From IMG/VR virus record IMGVR_UViG_2718218452_000003: a stretch of DNA of 35,148 nt, one strand, 5' to 3'. The stretch comes from a virus. Lineage: Duplodnaviria; Heunggongvirae; Uroviricota; Caudoviricetes. Of this stretch, positions 593-35,148 are shown in pieces. The notes under the pieces are model-generated. The model was not told the origin of the DNA, did not search any database, and worked only from the letters and a program-made list of their open reading frames with translations. Within the stretch, counting starts at the first letter, position 1. Every line of letters starts with the position of its first letter. A program made the translations under genes and the position numbers.

Positions 593-1016
593 AGCGACCT
601 CCCTTAACGTGGTGTTTCTATTATTCTAAGTTGTACTAATACTGATTCCAACTAACTGCTTGCTTTGAGTGAAAACCAGAAGTTTGCAGTTGAATTTTCA
701 CTGAGTAAGTAGTCGAGATTGACTATGCACTAGTAGGATTATTCTACGTGATTGAAGGCAACTTGTTGGTATGTAGATGATTTTACTGGTGGCAGTGTTG
801 TAAGTTTTTATCTCCCCGGTTTGTCTTTGACGCTATCTACTAGTTATTTAGTCGTGCTAAAATAAAACGCTGATTGAGTTCCTTTGGGTTAGGTTGATAA
901 CTCTCAGAGACTTTGGGAGGTGTAAGATTCGAACTTAATCGCTAAGTTTCATACTCTTGGCACTCGTTTGCCTCTACAAAAGTATGTTTTTTAACACAAA
1001 TAAAAGAAGTGCATTT

Positions 1017-2429
1017 ATGAGTATTCAACATATAAAAGTTGGCAGTATATCAGAAATTATTGATCTATCATCTAATTCTGGCGAGCATGCTGATTCTCAT
1101 CCTTTTATCCTCTCGAAGAACTGTGTATGGGGAGAACAGGGGGCAGAAATATCAATTGAGAAATTGCGCCAAAATATTGAGCCCTGGCTAACAGCTCTCT
1201 TCCAATCAGAGCATTTAAATTTATTAATCGGTGCAGGCTTAAGCTCGGCTATTCAAAAATCAGCTACAGGTTTATCTCCAGTAGGGATGGGGTGGATTAA
1301 TGATTTAAAAGTATGTAAAAGCGAAATAGATGAATTTTCCACTCAGGCTGCAAAAGCTGCAGGTCGCGACAGAGGAAATATAGAAGACCAAATTAGAACT
1401 ATCAATGAACTTATTAAAGGTCTCGAAATTTTAACGGTGTTAAATACTCCTCAACCAGAAAATCCGCCACCTCCTTATTCTGCTTATAGAAACTTAAAAG
1501 CAGACTTGGGCGAGCTCAAAGGCGAGCTTTCTAGATGCTTGGGGGAGTTTTCTAAATCTATAATTAAAGGAGAATATTTAATCAAAACTGCTGAACCAGC
1601 CCGGAAAGAGGAAACTTTCAACTATCTAGTTAGTTTTTTGATGAGCTTTGCAAGTAGAACTGCCACTCGCGATAGGCTACATATCTTTACAACAAATTAT
1701 GACCGTATTATTGAAGTGGGTGCTGAGCTTGCTGGTTTAAGACTTATTGATCGCTTTGTAGGAAGTATTGCTCCAGTATTTCGATCCTCAAGATTAGAAG
1801 TTGATTATCATTATAATCCTCCTGGAATCCGTGGTGAACCAAGATACTTGGAGGGCGTGGCACGTTTTACTAAACTTCATGGTTCCCTTGATTGGCATGA
1901 ACAAAATAATGCGATTAGGCGCTTTGGCTTACCCTTTGGAGCACGTTCTGTTGAGCCGTTTTTGGAAGCCGAAGGTCATCAAAGCAATGGCTATGAAAAA
2001 CTGATGATTTACCCTAATTCAGTAAAAGACAGAGAAACAGCCGAGTATCCTTATGTTGAGCTATTTCGAGATCTGGCAGCAGCAACTAGCCGTCCAAATA
2101 GCACATTAGTCACTTATGGTTATAGCTTTGGTGATGAGCATATCAATAGAGTAATTGAAGACATGCTTACGGTACCTTCCACTCATATAGTAATAATAGC
2201 CTTTGGCGATCCACTTGGCAGAATTATGCGTTTCATTAGTAATAGTGGAAGAAAAGCACAGATCACCCTTTTAATGGGAGATCATTTAGGAGACTTCAAA
2301 ACTTTAGTTGATAACTATTTACCTAAACCAGCTATTGATAAAGCATCAATCAAGATGGCAGAGTTGCTCAAACAAAGAGGCTTTATGCAGTTCAAAGAGT
2401 TAGGTAATTCAGCCGAAGTTGAGGTATGA
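1017..2429 (+). CDS. SIR2-family (sirtuin-like) NAD-binding protein, putative NADase effector of a SIR2-HerA defence module
   Basis: Translation carries GAGLS (DNA 1230..1244), TTNYD (1689..1703) and KLHGS with the catalytic-type His (codon 1878..1880). Start chosen at ATG 1017; the track ORF begins at TTG 957. Stop overlaps the downstream gene start. Low GC compared with the phage backbone. Confidence 0.75.
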   Translation: MSIQHIKVGSISEIIDLSSNSGEHADSHPFILSKNCVWGEQGAEISIEKLRQNIEPWLTALFQSEHLNLLIGAGLSSAIQKSATGLSPVGMGWINDLKVCKSEIDEFSTQAAKAAGRDRGNIEDQIRTINELIKGLEILTVLNTPQPENPPPPYSAYRNLKADLGELKGELSRCLGEFSKSIIKGEYLIKTAEPARKEETFNYLVSFLMSFASRTATRDRLHIFTTNYDRIIEVGAELAGLRLIDRFVGSIAPVFRSSRLEVDYHYNPPGIRGEPRYLEGVARFTKLHGSLDWHEQNNAIRRFGLPFGARSVEPFLEAEGHQSNGYEKLMIYPNSVKDRETAEYPYVELFRDLAAATSRPNSTLVTYGYSFGDEHINRVIEDMLTVPSTHIVIIAFGDPLGRIMRFISNSGRKAQITLLMGDHLGDFKTLVDNYLPKPAIDKASIKMAELLKQRGFMQFKELGNSAEVEV

Positions 2430-2431
2430 CA

Positions 2432-4465
2432 ATGAGTTATTTACCAATAGAAAAAATAGAACAACTAAGAATTGGAACTGTTGAGTTTGTATCACCTAAT
2501 GAAATTAGGGTGTCTTTAGAGATTGATTCTCCTGATTCAGTATCACTTCAAGGTGGGGCGCCTCGTAATTTTCCTAGAATAAATAGTTATATTTTAATCC
2601 GTAGTGATGACGGGTTTCTTGTTGGGCAAGTTGAGTGGATTGCAATAGAAAACTCGCCATATCCCAAAAGAAGAGGCTTACAAGATTTTGGGTTGATAGA
2701 CCTTCCTTTCCCACTTAAAAAGCTCAGTATCAATCCAGTTGGTACATTGAGAGTTGATAGAAAAAACGAAGGTTTCAGGTTCACGAGAGGAACTGATGCT
2801 TTCCCTTCGGTTGGTGACTCTGTGCTTTTGCCTACTGACCGACAATTACAATCAATAATTGAATCAGGTGATAATAGAAGGGTAAAAATAGGGGATAGCC
2901 CCCTAGCTAACAATGCTGAAATAAAAGTAGACCCCGATAGACTTTTCGGACGACATATAGCTGTTTTAGGTAATACGGGTAGTGGTAAATCATGTTCGGT
3001 GGCCGGCTTAATTCAATGGTCTCTTGATGCTGTTTTACAACAGGGAAAATCTCCAAATGCTCGATTTATAATACTTGATCCGAACGGAGAATATAGTAGA
3101 GCTTTAGGGCCAGAATCAAGATATAAGGGTAAACTATTACGTGTAGAGGCTAACATCGATGTCGGAGAGATGGATCTTAAAGTACCTTCATGGTTATGGA
3201 ATAGTTCTGAGTGGGCTGCTTTCACTCAAGCAAGTTCAAAGGTGCAACTTCCTTTACTACGTCGTGCTTTGAGGGCAATGAGGAATAATCTTCTATCAGA
3301 AGATGATGTGAAAATTCAAGCCAAACGCTTTTGCGGTATCCTTCTTGTATCTATGAGACAGCAGGCAAGTCAAGGTCAGATATATGTGAATAGTGGATCT
3401 GCTAAAGGTTTGGTTGAAACTTTGGGTTCTTGGAGAGATAGTATTTCTATCTTAAACGAGAGAATTGTTGATAAATCGCTCGATAAGCTAATAAACACAA
3501 TAAATACGTATCTTTCTTCACGAAGTGGATCTTCTTGGCCAGCAAAGCCTGTTGTTTCCGAGATTGAGTTGTTGATTAATGGATTTAGAGATGCATATAC
3601 AGCTCTAGGGGGAGATGAACAAGAACTTCTTCCAAAAAGCGAAGATGCGCCTATGCGTTTTAAAGGCGATGATTTTGTCGCATATCTCGAAGCTCTGGCT
3701 CAAGAAACAGGTACAGAACAATTCGTGGAGTTTCTTTTGACTCGTATTCGAACAATGCTAGGTGACACTCGTATTAGTGCAGTAACCAATGATTCTGTAA
3801 AGCCTATAAGTTTAACTAATTGGTTAGACACTTTTCTCGGTAAAAATGAACAAGGATCTATAACTGTTATAGATTTATCTCTAGTACCAAATGAAATAAT
3901 TCATTTGGTAACAGCTGTAATTTCTAGGGTGGCTTTTGAAGCACTACAACGTTATCGAAGATTAAATGGAAGGCCGCTACCAACAGTTTTAGTTGCAGAA
4001 GAAGCGCATACGTTTATTAAACGTTACAAGGAAGATAGTGAAACTCAGTCAGTCTCTGATATATGTTGCAAGGTGTTTGAAAAGATTGCACGGGAAGGAA
4101 GAAAGTTTGGGCTAGGCCTTGTTGTTTCTTCCCAAAGGCCATCAGAGCTATCTCCGACGGTTTTATCTCAATGTAATACTTTTTTGTTGCACAGGATTAG
4201 TAATGATAGAGATCAAGAGCAAGTACATAGACTTGTTCCAGATAATATGAGAGGGCTGTTGAGAGAGCTGCCATCGTTACCATCTAGGCATGCTATTTTA
4301 CTTGGATGGGCTTCAGAACTTCCTGTTTTAGTTAGAATGAAAGAGCTTACTGAAAAACAACGACCGCAATCTGATGATCCTGATTTTTGGGATGTGTGGT
4401 CTGGCACTACAAAAGAACCTCGGAAAGTTAATTGGCAACAGATAGCTGATGATTGGCAAAGTTGA
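2432..4465 (+). CDS. HerA/FtsK-like P-loop ATPase, partner of the SIR2 protein
   Basis: Walker A VLGNTGSGKS (DNA 2969..2992), Walker B-like LVAEEAHTF and an SQRPSE motif, with an N-terminal barrel-like region. GAGG lies 8 nt upstream of ATG 2432; an alternative ATG at 2426 overlaps the SIR2 stop, suggesting translational coupling. Confidence 0.75.
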   Translation: MSYLPIEKIEQLRIGTVEFVSPNEIRVSLEIDSPDSVSLQGGAPRNFPRINSYILIRSDDGFLVGQVEWIAIENSPYPKRRGLQDFGLIDLPFPLKKLSINPVGTLRVDRKNEGFRFTRGTDAFPSVGDSVLLPTDRQLQSIIESGDNRRVKIGDSPLANNAEIKVDPDRLFGRHIAVLGNTGSGKSCSVAGLIQWSLDAVLQQGKSPNARFIILDPNGEYSRALGPESRYKGKLLRVEANIDVGEMDLKVPSWLWNSSEWAAFTQASSKVQLPLLRRALRAMRNNLLSEDDVKIQAKRFCGILLVSMRQQASQGQIYVNSGSAKGLVETLGSWRDSISILNERIVDKSLDKLINTINTYLSSRSGSSWPAKPVVSEIELLINGFRDAYTALGGDEQELLPKSEDAPMRFKGDDFVAYLEALAQETGTEQFVEFLLTRIRTMLGDTRISAVTNDSVKPISLTNWLDTFLGKNEQGSITVIDLSLVPNEIIHLVTAVISRVAFEALQRYRRLNGRPLPTVLVAEEAHTFIKRYKEDSETQSVSDICCKVFEKIAREGRKFGLGLVVSSQRPSELSPTVLSQCNTFLLHRISNDRDQEQVHRLVPDNMRGLLRELPSLPSRHAILLGWASELPVLVRMKELTEKQRPQSDDPDFWDVWSGTTKEPRKVNWQQIADDWQS

Positions 4466-22565: not shown

Positions 22566-24317
22566 ATGATTCAGGACGCTTTTGTGCGCCAGCGTGCGCG
22601 ACAACTTTACTGGCAGGGTTATCCGCCCGCAGAAATATCACGTCTGATGGGAATAAACCCGAACACGATTTATGCGTGGAAAAAACGCGACCAGTGGGAT
22701 GAAACGCCACCCGTGCAGCGTGTCACGCAGTCCATCGATGCGCGCCTCATCCAGCTCACTGAAAAACAGAATAAAACAGGTGGTGACTTCAAGGAAATAG
22801 ACCTGCTGACCCGGCAGCTTAAAAAACTGCATGATGGCCAGCCGGATGCGACGGCCACAGGGAAGAAAGGCCGGGCGAAAAAACTCAAAAATCATTTCAC
22901 GCCGGAACAGATTGCCGCACTGCGGGAAAAAATCATCAGCAGGCTGGAGTGGCATCAGCGGGGCTGGTTTGACTCCCTGACCCTTTGCAGGGAAGCCGGG
23001 ATACGTAACAGGATGATCCTGAAATCCCGACAGATTGGGGCGACCTGGTATTTTGCACAGGAAGCACTGCTGATGGCGCTGCGTGACGATGTGGCGCAAC
23101 CTTACCAGCGTAACCAGATTTTTTTGTCTGCGTCGCGTCGTCAGGCGTTCCAGTTTAAAAGCATTATTCAGAAGGCTGCGGCTGAAGTTGATGTGGAGCT
23201 GAAAGGGGGCGATAAAATCATCCTCTCCAACGGCGCAGAGCTGCATTTTCTCGGCACTTCTGCTGCGTCGGCGCAGTCCTATACGGGCAATTTTTATTTT
23301 GATGAATTTTTCTGGGTCAGTCGCTTTGCTGAACTGCGCAAGGTGGCTGGCGCTATGGCAACCCTCAGCGGACTGCGGCGCACCTACTTCTCCACGCCAT
23401 CCACCGAAACGCACGAAGCATACGCCTACTGGAACGGCGACCGCTGGAACGAGAAAAAGGCCACGCATAAACGCCAGCGTTTTTCTGTGGACTGGAAAAC
23501 GCTGCATAACGGGCTTATCTGCCCTGACCGGATGTGGCGGCAAATTGTCACGCTGGAAGATGTGGTTAATCACGGCTGGAAACACACCGATATCGACGAA
23601 ATTCGTGATGAATACACCGAAGACGAGTTCCTCAATCTCTATATGTGTGAGTTTGTCCGCGAAGGGGAATCGGCATTTAACCTGAATATCCTGATTGGCT
23701 GCGGTGTTGACGGATACGACGACTGGAAAGACTGGAAACCTTTTGCTCCCCGCCCGATGGGGAATCGTCCGGTATGGATTGGGTATGACGCAAACGGCAG
23801 CAGTGGCAACGGCGACAGCGGCGCTGTGTCCGTGGTGGTTCCTCCGGCTGTTCCTGGTGGCCGTTTTCGAACGGTGGAGACGCGACGCGTTCAGGGGCTG
23901 GAGTTTGAAGAACAGGCCAGAGTCATTGAAGATTTCACGTATCGCTACAACGTGGAACACATCGGCATTGATGTGACGGGCGGGAACGGGGAGGCTGTTT
24001 ATCAGATAGTGAAACGGTTTTTCCCTGCCGCTATTCCGTACACCTTCACGCTGTCATCAAAACGGTCGCTGGTACTGAAAATGCTGCAAATAATGCGTGC
24101 CGGGCGGTGGGAATACGATCGCGCCGAACGCGAGCTGGTCGCGGCCTTTAACGCCGTGCGTAAGGTGAAAACACCGGGCGGCTTTATCACTTACGAAACG
24201 GACCGCGCGAGGGGGATCAGCCACGGCGACCTTGCGTGGGCAACCATGCTTGCTGTCATTAACGAACCAATTGGCGGCGAAGGAGAAAACGAGCGTTTCA
24301 CGGTTATGGAGTTCTGA
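22566..24317 (+). CDS. P: Terminase ATPase (large) subunit P
   Basis: 583 aa, transcribed divergently from O as in P2. GGGGGA RBS. Confidence 0.9.
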   Translation: MIQDAFVRQRARQLYWQGYPPAEISRLMGINPNTIYAWKKRDQWDETPPVQRVTQSIDARLIQLTEKQNKTGGDFKEIDLLTRQLKKLHDGQPDATATGKKGRAKKLKNHFTPEQIAALREKIISRLEWHQRGWFDSLTLCREAGIRNRMILKSRQIGATWYFAQEALLMALRDDVAQPYQRNQIFLSASRRQAFQFKSIIQKAAAEVDVELKGGDKIILSNGAELHFLGTSAASAQSYTGNFYFDEFFWVSRFAELRKVAGAMATLSGLRRTYFSTPSTETHEAYAYWNGDRWNEKKATHKRQRFSVDWKTLHNGLICPDRMWRQIVTLEDVVNHGWKHTDIDEIRDEYTEDEFLNLYMCEFVREGESAFNLNILIGCGVDGYDDWKDWKPFAPRPMGNRPVWIGYDANGSSGNGDSGAVSVVVPPAVPGGRFRTVETRRVQGLEFEEQARVIEDFTYRYNVEHIGIDVTGGNGEAVYQIVKRFFPAAIPYTFTLSSKRSLVLKMLQIMRAGRWEYDRAERELVAAFNAVRKVKTPGGFITYETDRARGISHGDLAWATMLAVINEPIGGEGENERFTVMEF

Positions 24318-25363
24318 TGAGCAGAAAAAATAAAAAAGTGCGCATGAGTTCACGCATTGATCTCGCTGATGCACTCAGGAAAGAATCGTCGCTCAGTGCA
24401 TTCACTTTTGATGGTCCTTATCGCCTGACCGGGCATGATTTGCTGGACAATATGTACTGTGCTGATAACGGGCGGTGGTATGAAACCCCGGTAGACTGGT
24501 ACGGTCTGGCAAGAGCTGCCCGGCAAACGTCCTGGCATCAGTCTGCGCTTTACTTTAAGCGCAATGTATTGCTCGGCTGCTATATTCCGCACCCGCTGCT
24601 TTCCCGGCAGGATTTCTCGGCGCTGGCGCTGGACTGGTTTGTGTTCGGTAACGCATTCCTTGAGCTTCGAAGCAATATGCTCGGCGAACCGCTTAAATTA
24701 CGGCACGCCCTGGCGAAATACATGCGACGCGGAAGCGATCTTGAATCATGGTGGTATGTGCAGGATGGCAAGGATGCGTTTCAGTTTCGCCCTGGTAAAG
24801 TGTGCCACCTGATGAATCCTGACATTAACCAGGAAATCTACGGCATGCCGGAATATCTTGGCGCATTACTCTCGGCCAGCCTGTCTCATTCGGCGGACAT
24901 GTTCAGAAAACTGTATTACGACAACGGATCCCACGCCGGGTGCATCATCTACATCGGTGCAGCGCAGGTAAACCGCGAAAGCATGGACTCCCTGAAAGAA
25001 ACGCTACAGGGTGCACGTGGTGGTGGTGCGTTTAAAAACGTGCTCATTCATGCCCCCAACGGTGGCAAAGAGGGGGTGCAAATTTTGCCGTTCCAGCAGA
25101 TCACCGCAAAGGATGAGTTCATGAATGTTAAGGCGGCATCCCGTGATGATGTGCTGGCTGCGCACCGCGTTCCGCCGCAACTGATGGGGGCGATGCCGGG
25201 CGAAAAAAGTGCGTTTGGTGATGTGGAGAAGGCCGCGCGGGTTTACGCAATTAACGAGCTGATGCCCGTCATGGAGGCCATGAAGCATATCAATGACTGG
25301 CTTGGCGAAGAGGTGATCCGATTTAACCCTTACGCACTGCTGGACACCCAGCCCACATCCTGA
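24317..25363 (+). CDS. Q: Portal (capsid) protein Q
   Basis: 348 aa. Start overlaps the P stop (TGATG). Confidence 0.9.
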   Translation: MSRKNKKVRMSSRIDLADALRKESSLSAFTFDGPYRLTGHDLLDNMYCADNGRWYETPVDWYGLARAARQTSWHQSALYFKRNVLLGCYIPHPLLSRQDFSALALDWFVFGNAFLELRSNMLGEPLKLRHALAKYMRRGSDLESWWYVQDGKDAFQFRPGKVCHLMNPDINQEIYGMPEYLGALLSASLSHSADMFRKLYYDNGSHAGCIIYIGAAQVNRESMDSLKETLQGARGGGAFKNVLIHAPNGGKEGVQILPFQQITAKDEFMNVKAASRDDVLAAHRVPPQLMGAMPGEKSAFGDVEKAARVYAINELMPVMEAMKHINDWLGEEVIRFNPYALLDTQPTS

Positions 25364-25887: not shown

Positions 25888-26244
25888 ATGGAAATGAATA
25901 TGAAAACTGTAACTGATGATGAATTTCGTGAGAACCTGAGTGAAATTCTGGATTACCTTTCTTCCGGTGGCAGTGTCGTTATCACGGCGCAGGGAGGGAA
26001 GGATGTTGTTCTTGCTGGTTCTGATCTTAGTCCTGAAATACGGGCTGTCCTTGGCAAAACCAAAAAACTGCGGGATCAAATAAACAAAATGAAGCAACCA
26101 CTCTTAATAAATGCAGTGAGAGATCTGGAAAAACGTCATCCAGCTCTTGTCGCACAGAGAAAAAAAGGATTGTCTTTTGAAGATGCAATGAAGCGTACAA
26201 GAGAAAAACATGCGGATATCATTAAAAAGCTTGAGGATAACTGA
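25888..26244 (+). CDS. Phd/YefM-like antitoxin
   Basis: N-terminal region FRENLSEILDYLSSGGSVVITAQGGKDVVL fits the Phd/YefM fold pattern. Stop overlaps the toxin start by 1 nt. Alternative ATG starts at 25894 and 25900. Confidence 0.6.
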   Translation: MEMNMKTVTDDEFRENLSEILDYLSSGGSVVITAQGGKDVVLAGSDLSPEIRAVLGKTKKLRDQINKMKQPLLINAVRDLEKRHPALVAQRKKGLSFEDAMKRTREKHADIIKKLEDN

Positions 26245-26651
26245 TGGACATAGTGTTTTTGTCAAAAGAACAAGTAGAACGTATCCATGCTGAAACTTTA
26301 CCCCAGAGCGGAAATGCCAATGACGGGCTACTTGAAGGTGCTTTAAATCGCGTCAGGACACTACACTACTATGAAGGGGTTGATGATATTCATGCTCTGG
26401 CTGCTATGTATTTGATTGGTATAGCCAAGGCTCATGCCTTTCATGATGGGAATAAACGCACAGCTTTTCAGGCTGCATCAATATTTTTAATGATGAACTC
26501 TTCCGAACTTTCAAACTCCCTGCTGCTGGTTAAATTAACGGTGTTTTCAGCAATGGGGATAGCTACCCTTGAGGAAGTTACCTTTGCTTTGAAATTGCTG
26601 TCTGATTATGGCAATGAATTAATCAGCGACTACGAAGAAGATTATATTTAA
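26244..26651 (+). CDS. doc: Doc/Fic-family toxin
   Basis: 135 aa with the Doc-type Fic motif HAFHDGNKRTA. Coupled to the upstream antitoxin. AT-rich. Confidence 0.75.
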   Translation: MDIVFLSKEQVERIHAETLPQSGNANDGLLEGALNRVRTLHYYEGVDDIHALAAMYLIGIAKAHAFHDGNKRTAFQAASIFLMMNSSELSNSLLLVKLTVFSAMGIATLEEVTFALKLLSDYGNELISDYEEDYI

Positions 26652-26817: not shown

Positions 26818-27153
26818 TCATTCATGCGTTTTTTCTTCATGGTCTGTCACTTCTCTCCTGATAACTTCATTGCACAAATCAACGCACTCATTGCAGATGT
26901 AAACAGACGGTCCGGCAATCACCTTTGTGACTTCGTACTGGGATTTATTGCAGAAGCTGCAATAAATCGTCTCCTCACCTGAAGTCCATGTTTTGCTGGT
27001 TTCGCCAGACATCAGTTGTTTGAGGTCTTTTTCACGACGAAGAACTATCTGGCCACATTCAGCTATTTTTTGGATGTTGACATTTTCTTCTTTCGCCAGC
27101 GCTTCCATCCGCTCAATCAGTCGCTGCGCTTTTTCTCTGTCAATGCGTTGCAT
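26818..27153 (-). CDS. ClpX-type zinc-finger (C4) domain protein with N-terminal coiled coil
   Basis: C-terminal [35 protein letters not shown] matches the ClpX N-terminal zinc-binding domain (C-x2-C-x18-C-x2-C). No AAA+ module. GGGGG RBS. Confidence 0.7.
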
Positions 27154-27216
27154 TGTGTCCCCCTTGTTTATGTTCCCGGGTTAAAGTCATCAGGGCGGAT
27201 GCGCACTGATGTTGTG

Positions 27217-27528
27217 TTATTCGGGAAATAACGCCCGGATATTTCCAGCCATCTGACTGGTTATCTGTGCGGTTGATACTGGCTGTGACGCGGGGCGTTC
27301 TGTCCTGGTTTGTGTCACTGATAACGCTTCATCATCAGCCCATGCAGCCAGTCGGTAAGCCTCTGCCGGATTCATTTTCAGAAGTGCCAGCCCGGCCAGA
27401 AAAGCCACGCGTTGGCCGCTTTTGCGCGCTTCTGGTGTAAGGCTGTCCAGCCAGGCGCATGCTTCACCTTCGTTCTTGACGGCGGCGGGCTTCAGATAGA
27501 AACTTATCCGTCTGGTTGGTGTCGTCAT
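27217..27528 (-). CDS. parR: ParR-like centromere-binding protein (partner of ParM)
   Basis: 103 aa from ATG 27528, with AAGGAG RBS, directly downstream of the ParM-like gene. Region RRISFYLKP...LDSLTPEARKSGQRVAFLAGLAL resembles R1 ParR / R100 StbB. The track ORF is extended to 27663. Confidence 0.55.
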   Translation of the reverse strand: MTTPTRRISFYLKPAAVKNEGEACAWLDSLTPEARKSGQRVAFLAGLALLKMNPAEAYRLAAWADDEALSVTQTRTERPASQPVSTAQITSQMAGNIRALFPE

Positions 27529-27532
27529 TGGT

Positions 27533-28492
27533 TTACTCCTTGTCCATTGCGTACAGCCCATTAACCAGAGCAAACTGTGGCACCCCGTCCGCGATGAAAG
27601 TCGCATTAACTCCGCAGGCTTCGCGGATAGCGGGTGCCACAATCTCCGCCCCGCCACCGACAACCATCACCCGCCCGTAACCCGAAAAACCCGCCAGCGC
27701 GCGGATCACGCGTTGTTTCAGTGTTTCTTCCTTTTCACGAATAATCGCCATCAGGCTGGCGTAATGCGCGTCATTGTGGATGTGCTGGCGCAGCCAGGCT
27801 TCATTATGGCGATGTTCGATAATGGTATTGGCGATGTGGTGACTGGTGCGCATACCGTTAGTGGCCATCACCGACAGTACGGCATCGGCCATCAGAGAAA
27901 CGCCTACGTGTGGATCGCAAAACACCTGGCTGATACCTGCCAGTTGCCCCTGAACCTTTGCCACATCCAGAGTGGTTCCGCCCAAATCCACAATCAGCAG
28001 GGATTCAAACGGACTCATGTCAGCCAGTGCCTTAAAGCCAGCCGGAATGGATTCAGGCATAACCCGTACGTTACGGATAGTGAATGTTTCGCCGTTCTGG
28101 TACTCCACCGGGCGCATAACGTTCGCTTTTTTGCGGCTGATGTTGGCCATGTCCGGCTGTGCGTTTGTGTCGAAATACTCGCTCAATGGCAGGGTGACAA
28201 CCACATCCACCTCCTGTGGCGTGATGCCTGATTTGACCAGCGCGTGATGAATGGCAATGACATTCACATCGCTGTACTGGTATTGCGTGTCGGTCGTCTG
28301 GACAAAGCGATCGCTGACCGGATCAAAACCATAGCGCACGCCATCAAGCATGTAGTTCGCGGGCTGCGAGCCACCGAACGGCGCAGACCATTCCGACTTG
28401 AAGCTGTTCGGGCTGATGGCGTTGCGGCGTTCGCCGTTCTCAGTCCATGCCAGCTTGATGTTGGTGGAGCCGTCGTCGATACAAATTTTCAT
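27533..28492 (-). CDS. parM: ParM/StbA-like actin-fold partition ATPase
   Basis: 319 aa. MKICIDDGSTNIKLAW, SPNSFK, QYSDVNVIAIHHAL, MPESIPAG, LLIVDLGGTTLD and VMVVGGGAEI follow plasmid R1 ParM blocks. Confidence 0.8.
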   Translation of the reverse strand: MKICIDDGSTNIKLAWTENGERRNAISPNSFKSEWSAPFGGSQPANYMLDGVRYGFDPVSDRFVQTTDTQYQYSDVNVIAIHHALVKSGITPQEVDVVVTLPLSEYFDTNAQPDMANISRKKANVMRPVEYQNGETFTIRNVRVMPESIPAGFKALADMSPFESLLIVDLGGTTLDVAKVQGQLAGISQVFCDPHVGVSLMADAVLSVMATNGMRTSHHIANTIIEHRHNEAWLRQHIHNDAHYASLMAIIREKEETLKQRVIRALAGFSGYGRVMVVGGGAEIVAPAIREACGVNATFIADGVPQFALVNGLYAMDKE

Positions 28493-28523
28493 GTCGCTTT
28501 TCCTTATGTTGATTAATTAATCG

Positions 28524-28635
28524 TTTACAGGATTTTTAAATCCCGCTTTTGCCTGTTTTGTGCGCGCTTCATATATCGCGGCACGTTTTTTGCTCATTTA
28601 TGGGATTTGTGAATCCCGTTTCTGTCTGTTTTTTG
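28524..28635. repeat. Two ~39-bp imperfect direct repeats (28524..28562 and 28597..28635), candidate parC-like centromere or regulatory site
   Basis: TTTACAGGATTTTTAAATCCCGCTTTTGCCTGTTTTGTG versus TTTATGGGATTTGTGAATCCCGTTTCTGTCTGTTTTTTG, about 31 of 39 identical, each with an internal GGATTT/AAATCC inverted repeat. They lie upstream of parM; the second copy overlaps the last codons of gene A. Confidence 0.5.
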
Positions 28636-31391
28636 TTTCCACTGGTCATGCCACCCCGCAGCAGGTCTGCTTTGCGGCTGGCGCGTTCAGTGGTTTCACT
28701 GATTCTCTGTGCGTGCTCTGCGTCGCGGATGGCGCGCAGCATGTCAGAAAGCACGGTAACGGGTGTTTTCATGGTGTTCTGGTCCTGCTGAAGTGTGGAT
28801 GCCAGGCGTGCGGCGGCTTCAGGGTCTGATGCCCCCAGCTGTGCCAGATAGCTGGCGACCGGGTTATGGCGGATCTCCGTGCTGCTTACGCCATGATTAC
28901 GGCTCAGGCGCTGCCAGAGCTGCGTGATTCGGCTGTCCGGGCGGGTATCCGGTTTGCGTACAATTTCAAATCCCTGCGGTGCAATGATGCTGCCGTCAAC
29001 GTACAGACTGCCGCCCCGTAACAGGTGCTGCATCTGTTGTTCACCGATATGCAGGCCGAGAGATTCAGCAGACTCCCGCCATTCTTTAGCGAGTAATTCG
29101 TGGTTATCAGGCAAAGGCCGTGGCTGTTTGCGGCTCTGTGTCCAGCTCTGCATTTCATCGCTGCTGTTTTTTGCCTGTTTGTCACGAAGCGAACGCATCA
29201 GCGCCCGGCGTTCGTGTCGTTTCAGTGAGCGCATCCATTCGTTCACTTCAACGCCATCAGGGAGCTGCGGCCACGGTGCTGGCCGTTCTTCCGGCTGTTC
29301 TGTCCCGTTGTTGTCCGTTTCCTGTACACGGGGACAGTTATTGCCACGAGTCCAAGGGGCGGCAGGGCCGCCCTGAAGGTCAAAACCATTTTCGCGGGCG
29401 CTGTCTTCCGCTTCCGGTTTACGTCTTACCAGCTTCCAGTTATCCGGGTGCGTGCACACACGGGAGGATTCCCCGATGAGTGGTGACCAGATCCCGTAAA
29501 TCTGTACACTCTGTTCGCCGTAATCGTTCAGCTCATCTGCGAGGTCGTAGGCGGTGCGAATCAGGTAGTCTTTGCGTGGAACAAGTACGCCACCCTGTTT
29601 CTCAATGTAGGTGGCAAAACACCCGGCATCAGCGGCAGCGAGTACCGCATCCATTGCGTCATTTTCCAGACGTTGTGGACCTTCCGGGTTGCGGGCCATC
29701 TGACTGGCAAGGCGGCGGAGTTCACGCCATACCTGACGGGAGGGGATACCAAAGAACTGGAACTGGCGGACGCGGTGAAGACGCGCCCAGCCGATGGCGC
29801 GTTCCACGCTCTCGGCCATTGATTTTCCGGTTTCGTGGTCCACGCGTGGCTTGCCCGTTTTCGGGTCGATGCCATCCACGGCGCGGCTGTCCAGGTTCTT
29901 TCCGATGTAGGTGGCGATGTAGCTGGTTGGCGTGCCTTTTGAGCCGTCGACGTACTCCGCTTTAAAACGCGGAGTTATGTCATCGCCCAGCTCGTGGCGG
30001 TCTTCCTGAATGGCAATATCACAGACGTGGGACACGATGGTTTCAATCTCGTCCGGATGTGCAAAGACCATCATATGCCAGTGCACAGTGCCGTCATGGT
30101 GAGGCTCCACCGTGCGGATGCCATACCAGCGAAGACCGTCGCGGTTCAGTTTTTTGCGGACCGCCGCAAAAAACGTGTTAACCAGGTAATCGCTGGAGTC
30201 GCGCATGGTGGCCCCGTTCCATTTGGGATTCGGATGACCGTTCTCCGTTGTTGCGTGGTATTTTGACGGGCAGGTGACAGTCAGAAACACCGCTCTGTCG
30301 CCACGGGCTTCGGCCAGAAATTCCAGCCCCTTCATGGTGGCCATCATTTCTGCCTTACGGTGAACCGGGTTACTTACTCCCGCGTAATACACCGTCTCGA
30401 GATCAATCGTGAACCCGTCTTCATTTTCCAGCATGAAACTTTTCAGGAAATCGCGTGTTTTCTCGTGCTGTGCGCGAAACTCGCTTAACGCGTCCTGGCT
30501 CAGATAGGGTGATGTTTTTCTGGAAACCAGACAGGCGGCGCGGAGTTGTTCTTCTCTCCACTCGCAACGTAACAGCCACAGTTTGCGTTTCCACCATTCC
30601 GCACAGGTCAGGCGAAGGATTGCGCCCGGCAGCAGCTCCGTGTCCGGTTCGTTCCTCCGGTCTTTATCTGTTGTCAGTGCGTCATAATGTGGAGGCATGA
30701 TGTGCAGGTGTAACGCCATGCGGGCCAGCATCTGATACGCCTTCAGCGTTACATCCATGGTCAGTTCGCCATCGGTCGCGCCAAAGCCATCGCAGAGTTT
30801 TTCGAAGGTGCTGCTGAACATCGCCGCCGTCATGGTGGCCAGCGTCTGTATCTGGTGTTTGTTGAGCTGCGGCAGGTAAAGCAAATCGTCCAGGCGTTCG
30901 CGTCCGGCAAGGGAGCGATAACCCGGTGTCAGCCAGTGTCCGTCAGTGCGATCCAGACGTTCGAATATTTTGCGCAGGGTTCCGCGTGCATAGCGTTCCG
31001 CCTGCCAGCTCTTTTTGCCTTTCCGGCGATCGGCTTCCTGTTTTTTGCGCAGGAAGGAGAGGTGGCGAATAAGCGGATCGCGCAGATAGGACGGCAGCAG
31101 GCGCAGCGAGGCCATGGCTTCATCCACCGCGCCGCGTGCCTGTTTTCTGGCGTCTCCTGCCAGTGTGATGGTTTTGTCCTGTTTTTCCTGTGCGTCCAGG
31201 CTTTTATTAATCAGGTTGCCCAGCGGCATGGCGGAGAACGCCGCATCAGCCATTTCCTGGCGGCGCTCGTTCTCTACCCGGTAGGCATCCAGCCAGGAGG
31301 AAAGCGCGGATTCAGGAGCGGGGATCCCCGTTCCTTCACGCCCCACTGCGTGGCGCGGTTGTTGCCAGTCCCTGATGTACTCTGCCGTCAT
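28569..31391 (-). CDS. A: Replication initiation protein A (rolling-circle HUH endonuclease)
   Basis: 940 aa with the HUH-type motif VHWHMMVFAH and conserved gpA blocks. Appears to carry a long C-terminal extension compared with recalled P2 gpA. Confidence 0.85.
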   Translation of the reverse strand: MTAEYIRDWQQPRHAVGREGTGIPAPESALSSWLDAYRVENERRQEMADAAFSAMPLGNLINKSLDAQEKQDKTITLAGDARKQARGAVDEAMASLRLLPSYLRDPLIRHLSFLRKKQEADRRKGKKSWQAERYARGTLRKIFERLDRTDGHWLTPGYRSLAGRERLDDLLYLPQLNKHQIQTLATMTAAMFSSTFEKLCDGFGATDGELTMDVTLKAYQMLARMALHLHIMPPHYDALTTDKDRRNEPDTELLPGAILRLTCAEWWKRKLWLLRCEWREEQLRAACLVSRKTSPYLSQDALSEFRAQHEKTRDFLKSFMLENEDGFTIDLETVYYAGVSNPVHRKAEMMATMKGLEFLAEARGDRAVFLTVTCPSKYHATTENGHPNPKWNGATMRDSSDYLVNTFFAAVRKKLNRDGLRWYGIRTVEPHHDGTVHWHMMVFAHPDEIETIVSHVCDIAIQEDRHELGDDITPRFKAEYVDGSKGTPTSYIATYIGKNLDSRAVDGIDPKTGKPRVDHETGKSMAESVERAIGWARLHRVRQFQFFGIPSRQVWRELRRLASQMARNPEGPQRLENDAMDAVLAAADAGCFATYIEKQGGVLVPRKDYLIRTAYDLADELNDYGEQSVQIYGIWSPLIGESSRVCTHPDNWKLVRRKPEAEDSARENGFDLQGGPAAPWTRGNNCPRVQETDNNGTEQPEERPAPWPQLPDGVEVNEWMRSLKRHERRALMRSLRDKQAKNSSDEMQSWTQSRKQPRPLPDNHELLAKEWRESAESLGLHIGEQQMQHLLRGGSLYVDGSIIAPQGFEIVRKPDTRPDSRITQLWQRLSRNHGVSSTEIRHNPVASYLAQLGASDPEAAARLASTLQQDQNTMKTPVTVLSDMLRAIRDAEHAQRISETTERASRKADLLRGGMTSGNKKQTETGFTNPINEQKTCRDI

Positions 31392-33812: not shown

Positions 33813-34124
33813 ATGTCAAGTGGGTATGAAAAAAAACTGAAAGAGATACGGAAAAGTGAAGGGTTAACTCAAGCTGAGTTTGCTGATGTTACTGGGATAA
33901 ATCTCGGAACTATAAAGAATTATGAGAGCGGTAAAAGAGAGGTTGGTTTAAGCGTTGTTGATCGCGTAATTAATTCTAAGGATTTCGAAAAATACACTAT
34001 ATGGCTTATGACGGGAAAAACAAATGAGGCTGCTGGGCAGATCAGTCCCTCTCTCTCCCCTGATGGGCCAGAAAACACATCGTCTTCTCAAAAATCCCGC
34101 AAGACTGGTACACAGCCCGGCTAA
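33813..34124 (+). CDS. C: Immunity repressor C (HTH)
   Basis: 103 aa. The HTH region and the C-terminal KYTIWLMTGKTNEAAGQISPSL...KTG resemble P2 repressor C. GGAG RBS. Confidence 0.8.
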   Translation: MSSGYEKKLKEIRKSEGLTQAEFADVTGINLGTIKNYESGKREVGLSVVDRVINSKDFEKYTIWLMTGKTNEAAGQISPSLSPDGPENTSSSQKSRKTGTQPG

Positions 34125-34173
34125 TCATGGAACGCTGGGGGCATGGTGGTCTTGTAACGCTGGGGTTTCACGA

Positions 34174-35148
34174 ATGAGCATAAAATCAATTCCGGGAGGG
34201 TATCTTCTTGACATGCGCCCTGAGGGGCGTAAAGGCAAACGCATTCGCAAAAAATTTAAAACGAAATCGGATGCAGTTTTATATGAGCGGTGGGTGCTGG
34301 CGCAACAGCATAACAATGAGTGGAAAGGAAACTCCATTGATCGCCGTCCGCTGTCGGTGCTTATTGACTTGTGGTGGAAATACCACGGCCAGCTAATGAA
34401 GTCAGGGCATAACACGCGCCTTAAATTGCTGCGCTTGAGTGAGGCAATGGATGACCCGTGTGTGCATAAACTTAATACAACGATGCTCACCGAGCTACGT
34501 GTGTCCAGGATAGAGCAGGGGATACAGCCCAGCACCATTAATCGAGAGATTGGGGCGTTAAGCGCGATGTTTACCGCACTCATCTCATCCGGCCATTTTC
34601 TTAACGATAACCCCGTTCAAGGCCTTAAAGGAATGAAGGTTAACGAGCGCGAAATGGGATATCTGAGTAAGTCTGAATGTGTTCAGTTGCTGGATGCACT
34701 GGCTGAAAATCCCGATGAACGGCTGGCTGTCGAAATCCTTCTGTCGACCGGGGCGCGATGGGGCGAGGTAGCGGCACTGGAGCAGCGCCGTGTTCTTCAT
34801 TGTCGAATCACTTTTTCAAAAACGAAGAACAGCAAAAACCGTACCGTTCCTATTTCTGAAAGCCTGTTTGAAAAGATCAAAAAACGGGGCGGGAAACTGG
34901 TGTTTCCGACGCTGGATTATCCATTAGTTCGCGATGTCATCAAAACGGTCGCACCTGATGTTCCTGACGGCCAGGCTGTTCATGCGCTGCGCCACACCTT
35001 CGCCAGTCATTTCATGATGAACGGCGGCAATATTCTGACGCTCCAGAAAATTCTGGGGCACGCAAAGATTCAGACAACGATGATTTATGCCCATCTTGCG
35101 CCGGATTACTTGCAGGATGCGGTGAGATTTAATCCTATTGCTGGGTAA
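34174..35148 (+). CDS. int: Tyrosine integrase
   Basis: 324 aa from ATG 34174. Blocks GKRIRKKFKTKSDAV, LSTGARWGE, HALRHTFASHFMMNGGNILTLQKILGH and MIYAHLAPDYLQDA match P2 Int, including the catalytic R, HxxR and Y. Ends at the window edge. Confidence 0.9.
   Translation: MSIKSIPGGYLLDMRPEGRKGKRIRKKFKTKSDAVLYERWVLAQQHNNEWKGNSIDRRPLSVLIDLWWKYHGQLMKSGHNTRLKLLRLSEAMDDPCVHKLNTTMLTELRVSRIEQGIQPSTINREIGALSAMFTALISSGHFLNDNPVQGLKGMKVNEREMGYLSKSECVQLLDALAENPDERLAVEILLSTGARWGEVAALEQRRVLHCRITFSKTKNSKNRTVPISESLFEKIKKRGGKLVFPTLDYPLVRDVIKTVAPDVPDGQAVHALRHTFASHFMMNGGNILTLQKILGHAKIQTTMIYAHLAPDYLQDAVRFNPIAG

What the first reader, a model, noticed from the sequence alone, without database searches (positions are those of the whole stretch)
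26818..27153. Stand-alone ClpX zinc-binding-domain protein
A 111-aa protein joins a coiled-coil N-terminus to a C4 zinc ribbon that looks nearly identical to the ClpX N-terminal substrate/adaptor-binding domain, but has no AAA+ module. It could act as a decoy or adaptor that redirects or blocks host ClpXP. This is a hypothesis from domain content only.
Basis: inference. Interest (0 to 1): 0.55.

Follow-up and report, generated by a model that had tools for sequence, protein, structure and literature searches.

The report
Phage copy of ClpX docking domain
A P2-family prophage of E. coli encodes a small protein that is a free-standing copy of the zinc-binding docking domain of the host ClpX unfoldase joined to a phage-specific helical hairpin. 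It most likely interferes with what the ClpXP protease degrades during early phage development, but nobody has tested this.

Summary
Window 26818-27153 (-) encodes a 111-aa protein. Residues 63-102 are a genuine ClpX-type C4 zinc-binding domain (ZBD): Pfam PF06689 E=3e-17, about 75% identity to the E. coli ClpX ZBD, and a model rmsd of 0.7 Å to the crystal structures. There is no AAA+ module.

The N-terminus is a predicted two-helix hairpin. In 1.84 billion representative proteins this hairpin was found only fused to a ZBD.

The window is a P88-like (P2-family) prophage. The gene is the last one of the early/replication operon (gpA-parM-parR-ZBD) and lies at the edge of a variable cargo region. 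Relatives down to 35% identity keep this position after gpA in at least seven P2-like lineages of Escherichia and Salmonella. Others sit among ea22-type early genes of D6 and ~108-kb phages.

The gene is under purifying selection. Its ZBD conserves the same columns as real ClpX, including the F16/I46 adaptor/substrate pocket.

PGAP names the family "ClpX C4-type zinc finger protein", and many records mislabel it "carboxylate--amine ligase". I found no functional study.

Best reading (inferred): an N-domain mimic that titrates ClpX adaptors and substrates. The main rival is a heterodimerising adaptor. A recurrent Phd/Doc neighbour is unexplained.

The parts
26818..27153 (-). CDS of the 111-aa stand-alone ClpX-ZBD protein (PHROG 6797; PGAP name 'ClpX C4-type zinc finger protein'; ortholog of phage P88 gp19)
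   Evidence: ORF list; Pfam; PHROG 6797 E=1.6e-57, full length; P88 and PhiR44_2 annotation; 100% identical gene annotated in E. coli chromosomes; purifying selection.
27004..27153 (-). Codons 1-50: family-specific N-terminal two-helix hairpin (helices 6-22 and 27-48, amphipathic)
   Evidence: AF2 secondary structure, pLDDT 77-90 for the first four 10-residue blocks. A profile of this region finds only 15 proteins in 1.84 billion representatives. Every intact one carries a ZBD C-terminally.
26968..27003 (-). Codons 51-62: Ser/Thr/Gly-rich flexible linker, variable in length (about 12-30 aa) among family members
   Evidence: pLDDT <50 at residues 52-59; length variation in the alignments.
26848..26967 (-). 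Codons 63-102: ClpX-type C4 treble-clef zinc-binding domain (Cys65, Cys68, Cys87, Cys90) with its C-terminal helix
   Evidence: Pfam PF06689 E=3e-17; PDB 1OVX/2DS5 E about 1e-19; Foldseek rmsd 0.7 Å; column conservation equals that of real ClpX.
26818..26847 (-). Codons 103-111 plus stop: charged C-terminal tail. It differs between cargo variants (…TDHEEKTHE here, …TDKKGKNA in P88), so a recombination junction lies inside the last codons.
   Evidence: Alignments. Of the 10 nonsynonymous window-versus-P88 differences, only 2 fall in the N-terminal or ZBD blocks.
27159..27165 (-). Shine-Dalgarno AAGGGGG, 5 nt upstream of the ATG. No sigma-70-like promoter was found in the 63-nt parR-ZBD gap.
   Evidence: Sequence. 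The promoter scan finds none between 27154 and 27216. Similarity to a P88-like phage that lacks the gene (P884B11) ends at about 27162.
27217..31391 (-). Context: upstream genes of the same early operon. They are gpA replication endonuclease (28569-31391), ParM (27533-28492) and ParR/StbB (27217-27528).
   Evidence: Pfam Phage_GPA, StbA_N/ParM_N and Plasmid_stab_B; PGAP annotation of an identical prophage.
25888..26651 (+). Context, possibly linked: convergent Phd (25888-26244) / Doc (26244-26651) toxin-antitoxin pair. Doc's stop is 167 nt from the ZBD gene's stop.
   Evidence: Pfam PhdYeFM_antitox and Fic/DOC; PGAP annotation; recurrence next to a 35%-identical ZBD gene in Salmonella P2-like prophages.

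Best explanation
The gene encodes an accessory early protein of a P2-family temperate phage. The protein is a free-standing mimic of the N-terminal docking domain of host ClpX.

It is probably transcribed by read-through of the early operon (gpA-parM-parR). Like the ClpX N-domain, its ZBD probably folds around one zinc ion and dimerises, and the N-terminal helical hairpin may reinforce that dimer.

The free ZBD dimer presents the same hydrophobic pocket that ClpX uses to dock adaptors (SspB, RssB, UmuD-type) and N-domain-dependent substrates (lambda-O-type, MuA-type). It therefore competes with ClpX for them. [quoted passage not shown]

The likely benefit is stabilisation of one or more labile phage or host proteins, such as a replication or regulatory protein or, where present, the neighbouring Phd antitoxin.

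Shown here: domain identity, fold, conservation pattern, selection, genomic position and distribution.
Inferred: expression, zinc binding, dimerisation, binding of adaptors or substrates, the effect on ClpXP, and the beneficiary.
For: 1. The ZBD is genuine and close to the host's.

2. Across 26 distinct family ZBD sequences, the conserved columns are the ones conserved in 26 bona fide ClpX ZBDs: S15, F16, K19, Q21, V24, I28, A29, G30, V33, I35, E38, V40, D41, N44, I46, I47. The N-terminal halves have diverged to 24-42% identity. F16 and I46 form the hydrophobic side pocket that overlaps the lambda-O site and the SspB/RssB-binding region (PMC7804408).

3. The mechanism is biochemically feasible. 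Isolated E. coli ZBD in trans inhibits RssB-dependent sigma-S degradation, and deleting the ZBD abolishes it while ssrA degradation is unaffected (PMC7226468). The ZBD is required for lambda-O degradation (PMC7804408).

4. The gene is under purifying selection. Nonsynonymous differences per site are 0.14-0.24 in the ZBD and 0.39-0.50 in the N-terminus, against synonymous differences of 0.5-0.9.

5. It holds an early-operon position after gpA in at least seven diverged P2-like lineages. In D6-type and ~108-kb phages it sits among ea22/ead early accessory genes.

6. ZBD-only proteins of 63-83 aa exist in unrelated phages, next to cII or replication genes. A bare ZBD is therefore apparently useful to a phage, as a decoy model predicts.

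7. Precedent exists: phage inhibitors of host proteases include T7 gp4.5 and T4 PinA against Lon, and lambda RexB against ClpP proteases (review PMC10286901).
Against: - There is no experimental or interaction evidence of any kind.
- In vitro inhibition by free ZBD needed a roughly 10- to 30-fold molar excess over ClpX (5-20 µM against 0.6 µM), so a decoy must be abundant or bind more tightly than ClpX's own domain.
- A pure decoy does not explain why the N-terminal hairpin is obligatory and conserved in this family.
- The beneficiary protein is unknown. I know of no ClpXP-sensitive step described for P2-like phages (own knowledge).
- The gene is dispensable: close P88-like phages carry other genes in its place.
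- The D6-group ZBDs have changes at P31, L42 and nearby positions (AGDAVF, CVKDC), so not all members need to keep ClpX-like binding.
- The ClpX comparison set was drawn from hits to this query and is biased towards similar sequences.
Confidence: 0.42

Rival explanations
1. Heterodimerising adaptor or hijacker. The phage ZBD pairs with the ZBD of a ClpX subunit in place of a second ClpX N-domain. This tethers the N-terminal hairpin to the ClpX ring. The hairpin then either recruits a specific target (a host defence or regulatory protein, or a phage protein whose removal is timed) for degradation, or blocks the pore.
For: - The dimer-forming helix and core hydrophobic positions are essentially identical to ClpX ([13 protein letters not shown]).
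- The N-terminal hairpin is found only with the ZBD and is itself conserved (E17, E23, C33, L38, R40, the L-x-SG motif), as expected for a second functional surface.
- In phages generally the ZBD is combined with many different N- or C-terminal extensions, i.e. a constant module plus variable modules.
- ClpX N-domains are flexibly tethered dimers (PMC9963277; PMC7804408).
Against: - ClpX N-domain dimers form within one hexamer at high local concentration, so invasion by a free monomer may be unfavourable (inference).
- The hairpin may simply stabilise a homodimer.
- No candidate target is known, and no partner gene is conserved next to it.
- ZBD-only phage proteins have no cargo-binding module.
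Confidence: 0.2
2. Dedicated regulator of a linked toxin-antitoxin module. The protein controls ClpXP turnover of the neighbouring Phd antitoxin. For example, it could stabilise Phd while the phage runs its own lytic programme, so that Doc is not released against the phage itself.
For: - Phd/Doc lies next to the ZBD gene in two independent arrangements. In E. coli P88-like prophages it is convergent and downstream, present in 17 of 5426 complete genomes, and at least one sampled record (UPEC132) carries this Phd/Doc without the ZBD gene. In Salmonella P2-like prophages, whose ZBD is only 35% identical and whose Doc is 58% identical, it is divergent and upstream.
- This Doc type is otherwise rare: no hit in 50,697 phage records and one full-length hit in 72,556 plasmids.
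- P1 Phd is a ClpXP substrate (Lehnherr & Yarmolinsky 1995, as cited in PMC10286901).
Against: - Most carriers of the ZBD gene have no Phd/Doc nearby: 94 of 111 E. coli genomes, P88, D6, other Salmonella lineages, and 3 of 8 contexts of the same Salmonella ZBD.
- The region is a cargo hotspot where toxin-antitoxin pairs accumulate anyway; a YafO-type pair occurs in other variants.
- Only two independent associations were seen.
- Whether Phd degradation needs the ClpX N-domain is unknown to me.
Confidence: 0.1
3. The function is unrelated to ClpXP. The treble-clef zinc domain is reused as a generic dimerisation or peptide-binding module (or a nucleic-acid-binding one) in a phage regulator. Possible roles include plasmid-like partition (parMR) or control of replication or transcription.
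For: - In P88-like phages the gene always follows parR, and in one lineage parR and the ZBD gene were replaced together (ParR 56% and ZBD 35% identity, against ParM 98%).
- Small zinc-finger regulators are common in P2-like phages; an Ogr/Delta gene lies at 332-592.
- There is no direct evidence for a ClpX connection.
Against: - Conservation of nearly all ClpX-conserved surface columns, not only the Cys ligands and core, is hard to explain without ClpX-like partners.
- The family occurs without parMR in Salmonella, in other E. coli P2-like phages and in D6-type phages.
- There is no Pfam hit to Ogr/Delta, DksA/TraR or any DNA-binding family.
- The ClpX ZBD is not known to bind DNA (own knowledge).
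Confidence: 0.15
4. A decaying fragment of a captured clpX gene with no function.
For: Frameshifted or truncated copies exist in databases (P0010, P0018, P0126, P0127).
Against: - Purifying selection holds across members whose synonymous sites are saturated.
- The two-domain architecture is conserved and the N-terminal domain does not derive from ClpX.
- The gene has its own strong Shine-Dalgarno sequence.
- It is present in 111 complete E. coli genomes and in hundreds of Salmonella contigs.
Confidence: 0.02

Closest known systems
[quoted passage not shown]
   Same: It has the same fold and the same C4 zinc site, with about 75% identity over 40 residues. The same columns are conserved, including the F16/I46 hydrophobic pocket and the helix ECVDLCNxII.
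   Different: It is not attached to an AAA+ module. It is preceded by a roughly 50-aa helical hairpin and a flexible linker that ClpX lacks, and it is encoded by a phage. Differences from ClpX include G18 to N (family-typical), H22 to Y, R25 to T and L27 to V.
Phage-encoded inhibitors of host ATP-dependent proteases: lambda CIII (FtsH), T4 PinA and T7 gp4.5 (Lon), lambda RexB (ClpP proteases)
   Same: All are small early or accessory phage proteins proposed or shown to blunt one host protease and so stabilise labile proteins or antitoxins (PMC10286901; CIII from own knowledge).
   Different: There is no sequence or fold relationship. None of them is a copy of a domain of the protease they affect. 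Activity of the present protein is untested.
Anti-adaptors of the ClpXP pathway (IraD, IraM, IraP acting on RssB; B. subtilis YirB acting on YjbH)
   Same: The predicted outcome is the same: adaptor-dependent ClpXP substrates are stabilised by sequestering the adaptor. IraD and the ZBD are proposed to share an overlapping site on RssB (PMC7226468; PMC6057675 listed).
   Different: Anti-adaptors are unrelated folds specific for one adaptor. A ZBD mimic would compete for everything that docks on the ClpX N-domain.
Other small phage ZBD proteins: Pseudomonas phage PP9W2 gp081 (65 aa, PHROG 12435-type), an unannotated 73-aa ORF of Klebsiella phage ST846-OXA48phi9.2, and IMG/VR proteins of 63-183 aa
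   Same: Each is a stand-alone ClpX-type ZBD in a phage early region near cII, replication or nin-type genes.
   Different: They lack the N-terminal hairpin of this family and carry no extension or different ones. Their ZBDs are more diverged (33-58% identity). They are also uncharacterised.

Membership tests
Pfam zf-C4_ClpX (PF06689) domain family | Score above the curated gathering threshold | tested here: met
   62.6 bits against a cutoff of 27, E=3.1e-17, profile positions 2-38 of 39.
Pfam zf-C4_ClpX (PF06689) domain family | CxxC-x18-CxxC zinc ligands in a treble-clef fold with a C-terminal helix | tested here: met
   C65, C68, C87 and C90 align with the ClpX ligands. The model has rmsd 0.7 Å and TM 0.88-0.91 to 2DS5/2DS6/2DS8. 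Zinc binding itself is not testable here.
ClpX unfoldase (TIGR00382 / NF003745 equivalogs) | AAA+ ATPase module (Walker A/B, pore loops, IGF loop), about 420 aa | tested here: not met
   The protein is 111 aa. Scores are 49.3 and 48.4 bits against cutoffs of 370.75 and 359, and only model positions 3-53 match.
PHROG 6797 / PGAP 'ClpX C4-type zinc finger protein' (two-domain phage family) | Full-length match: N-terminal hairpin + linker + ZBD | tested here: met
   phrog_6797 E=1.6e-57 over residues 1-105; 98-100% identical database proteins; 95% identical to P88 gp19.
Carboxylate--amine ligase (the name carried by many GenBank records of this protein) | A ligase catalytic domain | tested here: not met
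   The only Pfam domain above threshold is zf-C4_ClpX, and NCBIfam gives only weak ClpX N-terminal matches. The name is an annotation error that has propagated.
Phage zinc-finger transcription factors (Ogr/Delta) and DksA/TraR C4 zinc fingers | Match to PF04606 or PF01258 | tested here: not met
   Neither appears in the Pfam scan at E<=0.1. The window has a separate Ogr/Delta gene at 332-592.
Known anti-phage defence proteins (PADLOC-DB) | Match to a defence-system model | tested here: not met
   0 families at E<=0.1.
Protease inhibitors / anti-adaptors of ClpXP (functional class) | Binds ClpX adaptors, substrates or ClpX itself and reduces degradation of N-domain-dependent substrates | not testable with these tools
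   The only indirect support is conservation of pocket residues and published inhibition by isolated ZBD (PMC7226468).
ClpX adaptors carrying an XB-type ClpX-binding tail (SspB-like) | C-terminal LRVVK-like tail that docks on the ZBD | tested here: not met
   The C-terminal tails are charged and variable (…TDHEEKTHE, …KKGKNA, …EEQRESA). By eye there is no XB-like tail; no formal motif search was run.

The most novel reading that the evidence does not exclude
Phage ZBD proteins could be 'receptor-swap' hijackers. By pairing with ClpX N-domains they would install a phage-chosen recognition module (here the helical hairpin, in other phages other extensions) on the host ClpXP machine. ClpXP would then be reprogrammed to destroy host defence or regulatory proteins, or to spare phage proteins. 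This would be analogous to viral hijacking of eukaryotic ubiquitin-ligase substrate receptors. The recurrent Phd/Doc neighbour would then be one client of this control.
Probability: 0.13. Interest if true: 0.8.

Novelty: new variant of a known kind. Interest (0 to 1): 0.5.

Why it matters
ClpXP selects many of its regulated substrates through the N-domain, including sigma-S via RssB, SspB cargo, UmuD', lambda O and MuA. A natural, phage-encoded free copy of that domain would be the first example of a virus manipulating a bacterial AAA+ protease by mimicking the protease's own docking domain.

If confirmed, it would provide:
- a genetically encoded, branch-specific ClpXP inhibitor that affects adaptor-dependent but not direct substrates;
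- a clue to which proteolytic events matter for P2-family and phage-plasmid development;
- a possible link between prophages, toxin-antitoxin activation and the stress responses of lysogens. The gene is present in about 2% of complete E. coli genomes, including UTI89 and an ST131 strain, and is common in Salmonella.

The work also corrects a widely propagated misannotation ('carboxylate--amine ligase').

Tried and rejected
- Literature: six full-text searches for stand-alone or phage ClpX zinc-finger proteins found no functional study.
- The PNAS 2006 paper mapping ZBD binding sites is not held. Residue-level mapping therefore relied on F16/I46 from PMC7804408.
- PADLOC: no defence-model hit.
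- Rfam on the whole window: nothing.
- Promoter scan: no sigma-70-like site upstream of the gene, and no convincing intrinsic terminator immediately downstream. Expression by read-through is therefore inferred, not shown.
- Foldseek against PDB and BFVD recognised only the ZBD. The hairpin gave no significant fold match.
- A profile search with the N-terminal hairpin alone found no occurrence outside this family, so it gives no functional lead.
- Host-tracking test (is the phage ZBD closest to its own host's ClpX?): abandoned. ClpX ZBDs are too uniform across Proteobacteria. The window ZBD carries N at the position where E. coli ClpX has D38, which is the majority state in the ClpX sample.
- Conserved partner gene: rejected. 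Both upstream and downstream neighbours vary.
- Obligatory link to parMR: rejected.

Full report
**1. Observation**

The ORF at 26818-27153 (minus strand, ATG start, 111 aa) is present as described. An AAGGGGG Shine-Dalgarno sequence lies 5 nt upstream of the start codon.

Residues 64-99 match Pfam zf-C4_ClpX (PF06689) at E=3.1e-17, with 62.6 bits against a cutoff of 27. A phmmer search of PDB sequences returns the E. coli ClpX zinc-binding domain (ZBD; 1OVX, 2DS5) at E about 1e-19. Read from that alignment, 30 of 40 residues are identical over 63-102 and all four Cys ligands align.

An AlphaFold2 model (mean pLDDT 79) shows helices 6-22 and 27-48, a disordered linker, and then a ZBD. The ZBD part superposes on crystal structures 2DS5/2DS6/2DS8 at 0.7 Å rmsd.

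There is no AAA+ module. The ClpX equivalog models score 48-49 bits against cutoffs of 359-371, and only their first ~50 positions match.

Its oligomeric state could not be tested.

**2. What the element is**

The window is a nearly complete P88-like (Xuanwuvirus, Peduoviridae, P2-family) prophage. Its layout is:
- ogr (332-592);
- a SIR2-HerA defence pair (957-4465);
- tail and head genes, then terminase and portal (22566-25363);
- Phd/Doc (25888-26651, plus strand);
- on the minus strand, the early operon running from the region next to the C repressor and integrase (33813-35148), through a MarR-like gene, gpA (28569-31391), ParM (27533-28492) and ParR (27217-27528), to the ZBD gene, which is its last gene.

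The gene is the ortholog of P88 gp19, which is annotated 'carboxylate--amine ligase' with a ClpX note. It is 100% identical to genes that PGAP names 'ClpX C4-type zinc finger protein'. It belongs to PHROG 6797, whose function is unknown.

**3. Accessory status and expression**

Nucleotide similarity to one P88-like phage that lacks the gene (P884B11) stops at about 27162, 9 nt upstream of the ATG. In others it stops at the parR stop codon or inside parR. Those phages carry unrelated genes in its place.

Downstream of the gene at least three different cargo sets occur:
- Phd/Doc;
- a 174-aa protein plus an Ead/Ea22-like protein;
- a 104-aa protein plus an XF1762-family protein and others.

The gene is therefore a dispensable accessory gene at the boundary between the conserved replication/partition block and a variable hotspot. 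No sigma-70-like promoter was found in the 63-nt gap after parR, so read-through from the early operon is the likeliest source of expression. This is an inference.

**4. Family and distribution**

A profile of the N-terminal 62 residues, searched against 1.84 billion representative proteins, finds only 15 proteins. Every intact one has the ZBD at its C-terminus, and the rest are truncated or frameshifted copies. The hairpin and the ZBD therefore form one obligate architecture.

Named members come only from Escherichia (coli, albertii, marmotae) and Salmonella enterica. The near-identical gene is in 111 of 5426 complete E. coli genomes, including UTI89, an ST131 strain and an O55:H7 strain. One Salmonella variant was seen on 763 contigs.

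Members down to 35% identity keep the same location, after gpA and 0-3 small ORFs and before the convergent portal or ogr genes. This holds in at least seven P2-like lineages whose gpA proteins are as little as 31-50% identical.

A 49-51% identical branch sits among ea22/ead/eaA-type early accessory genes of phage D6 and of ~108-kb phages.

**5. Selection and conservation**

Between diverged members, synonymous sites are near saturation (0.5-0.9 differences per site). Nonsynonymous differences are 0.14-0.24 per site in the ZBD and 0.39-0.50 in the N-terminal part. The protein is therefore maintained by selection, and the ZBD more strictly than the hairpin.

I compared 26 distinct family ZBDs with 26 bona fide ClpX ZBDs, identified by the downstream YVIGQ motif or by full length. 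The family conserves the same columns as ClpX: S15, F16, K19, Q21, V24, I28, A29, G30, V33, Y/F34, I35, E38, V40, D41, N44, I46 and I47, in mature E. coli numbering.

[quoted passage not shown] That pocket overlaps the lambda-O binding site and the region bound by SspB and RssB (PMC7804408).

Caveat: the ClpX sample consists of hits to this query, so it is biased towards similar sequences. The D6 branch is also relaxed at P31 and L42.

**6. Mechanism**

No tool here can test binding, so the mechanism is inferred.

The published biochemistry makes a decoy feasible:
- Isolated ZBD in trans inhibits RssB-mediated sigma-S degradation.
- Deleting the ZBD abolishes that reaction, and it is reported not to affect ssrA-tagged substrates (PMC7226468).
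- The ZBD is required for lambda-O degradation (PMC7804408).

Phage inhibitors of host proteases are an established kind: T7 gp4.5 and T4 PinA against Lon, and lambda RexB against ClpP proteases (PMC10286901).

Small ZBD-only proteins occur in unrelated phages, next to cII, replication or nin-type genes:
- a Klebsiella phage ORF of 73 aa, unannotated;
- Pseudomonas PP9W2 gp081, 65 aa;
- IMG/VR loci.

These show that a bare ZBD is useful to phages.

I therefore favour an N-domain mimic that titrates adaptors and N-domain-dependent substrates away from ClpX during early development (confidence about 0.4).

The main rival is a heterodimerising adaptor or hijacker (about 0.2). It is suggested by the obligatory, conserved hairpin and by the variety of extensions attached to ZBDs in phages.

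**7. The Phd/Doc neighbour**

Phd/Doc lies convergent, 167 nt from the gene, in the window. The contiguous Phd-Doc-ZBD block is present in 17 complete E. coli genomes, and at least one sampled record carries this Phd/Doc without the ZBD gene.

In Salmonella P2-like prophages with a ZBD protein only 35% identical, a Doc that is 58% identical and its Phd lie on the other side of the gene, divergently oriented. This is the case in 5 of 8 contexts.

This Doc type has no hit in 50,697 phage records and one full-length hit in 72,556 plasmids. P1 Phd is a classical ClpXP substrate (cited in PMC10286901).

That makes two independent associations inside a known cargo hotspot, and most carriers of the ZBD gene lack Phd/Doc. 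I keep it as a sub-hypothesis (about 0.1) and as an unexplained observation.

**8. Comparison with what is known**

As a domain, this is a member of PF06689. As a protein, it is a member of an already named but uncharacterised phage family. It is not a ClpX, not a carboxylate-amine ligase, not an Ogr/Delta or DksA/TraR zinc finger, and not a known defence protein.

Functionally it would resemble phage protease inhibitors and ClpXP anti-adaptors, but it would work by mimicking a domain of the protease itself. I found no description of that.

**9. Verdict**

The sequence family is already in databases, so the novelty lies in the proposed function. I rate it a new variant of a known kind, with moderate interest (0.5).

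Noticed in passing
window 957-4465 (+): This is a SIR2 (957-2429) plus HerA (2426-4465) anti-phage defence pair, located just after the ogr gene and before the tail genes. PADLOC scores are SIR2 E=3e-155 and HerA E=2e-252.
   Followed up: partly
window 25888-26651 (+); L075 2825-3630; L103-L108: A Phd/Doc toxin-antitoxin pair lies next to the ZBD gene. A 58%-identical Doc is also next to a 35%-identical ZBD gene in Salmonella P2-like prophages, in a different orientation. This Doc type is absent from the phage collection and nearly absent from plasmids.
   Followed up: partly
window 27217-28492 (-): An integrase-carrying P2-family prophage encodes a ParM/ParR (StbA/StbB) plasmid-partition pair inside its early operon. 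A P88-like sequence is also deposited as a 34,461-bp E. coli plasmid record (NZ_CP148288.1). This hints at an episomal stage.
   Followed up: no
P88 gp19 (NC_026014.1 10195-10527), D6 orf93, and many GenBank proteins: This family is widely mislabelled 'carboxylate--amine ligase'. No ligase domain is present.
   Followed up: yes
L010 3001-3222 (+) (Klebsiella phage ST846-OXA48phi9.2, MK416022.1 13044-13265): An unannotated 73-aa ZBD-only ORF lies between cII and the replication-initiator and DnaC-like genes. The record instead annotates a 51-aa ORF on the opposite strand.
   Followed up: partly
proteins P0028, P0059, P0062, P0083, P0084 (metagenomic): This is another stand-alone ZBD family of about 136 aa, with the ZBD at the N-terminus and a conserved C-terminal region (…IKAWEGLSDEDLL.EMVRA…). 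It is unrelated to the phage hairpin family.
   Followed up: no
window 26848-27153 versus L007 8001-8333: Synonymous divergence is uneven within the gene. Between the window and the P0015 lineage it is 0.30 per site in the ZBD part and 0.80 in the N-terminal part. This suggests recombination inside the gene or extra constraint on the ZBD codons.
   Followed up: no
L076 3615-4372: In one P88-like contig, gpA and ParM are 96-98% identical to the window, but ParR (56%) and the ZBD protein (35%) are both replaced by diverged alleles. In that lineage the two genes were exchanged as a block.
   Followed up: no
L022, L024, L045 (IMG/VR): Some copies have an in-frame upstream ATG that would add 12 residues ([12 protein letters not shown]) to the protein. 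This is probably an ORF-extension artefact of my start choice rather than a real isoform.
   Followed up: no
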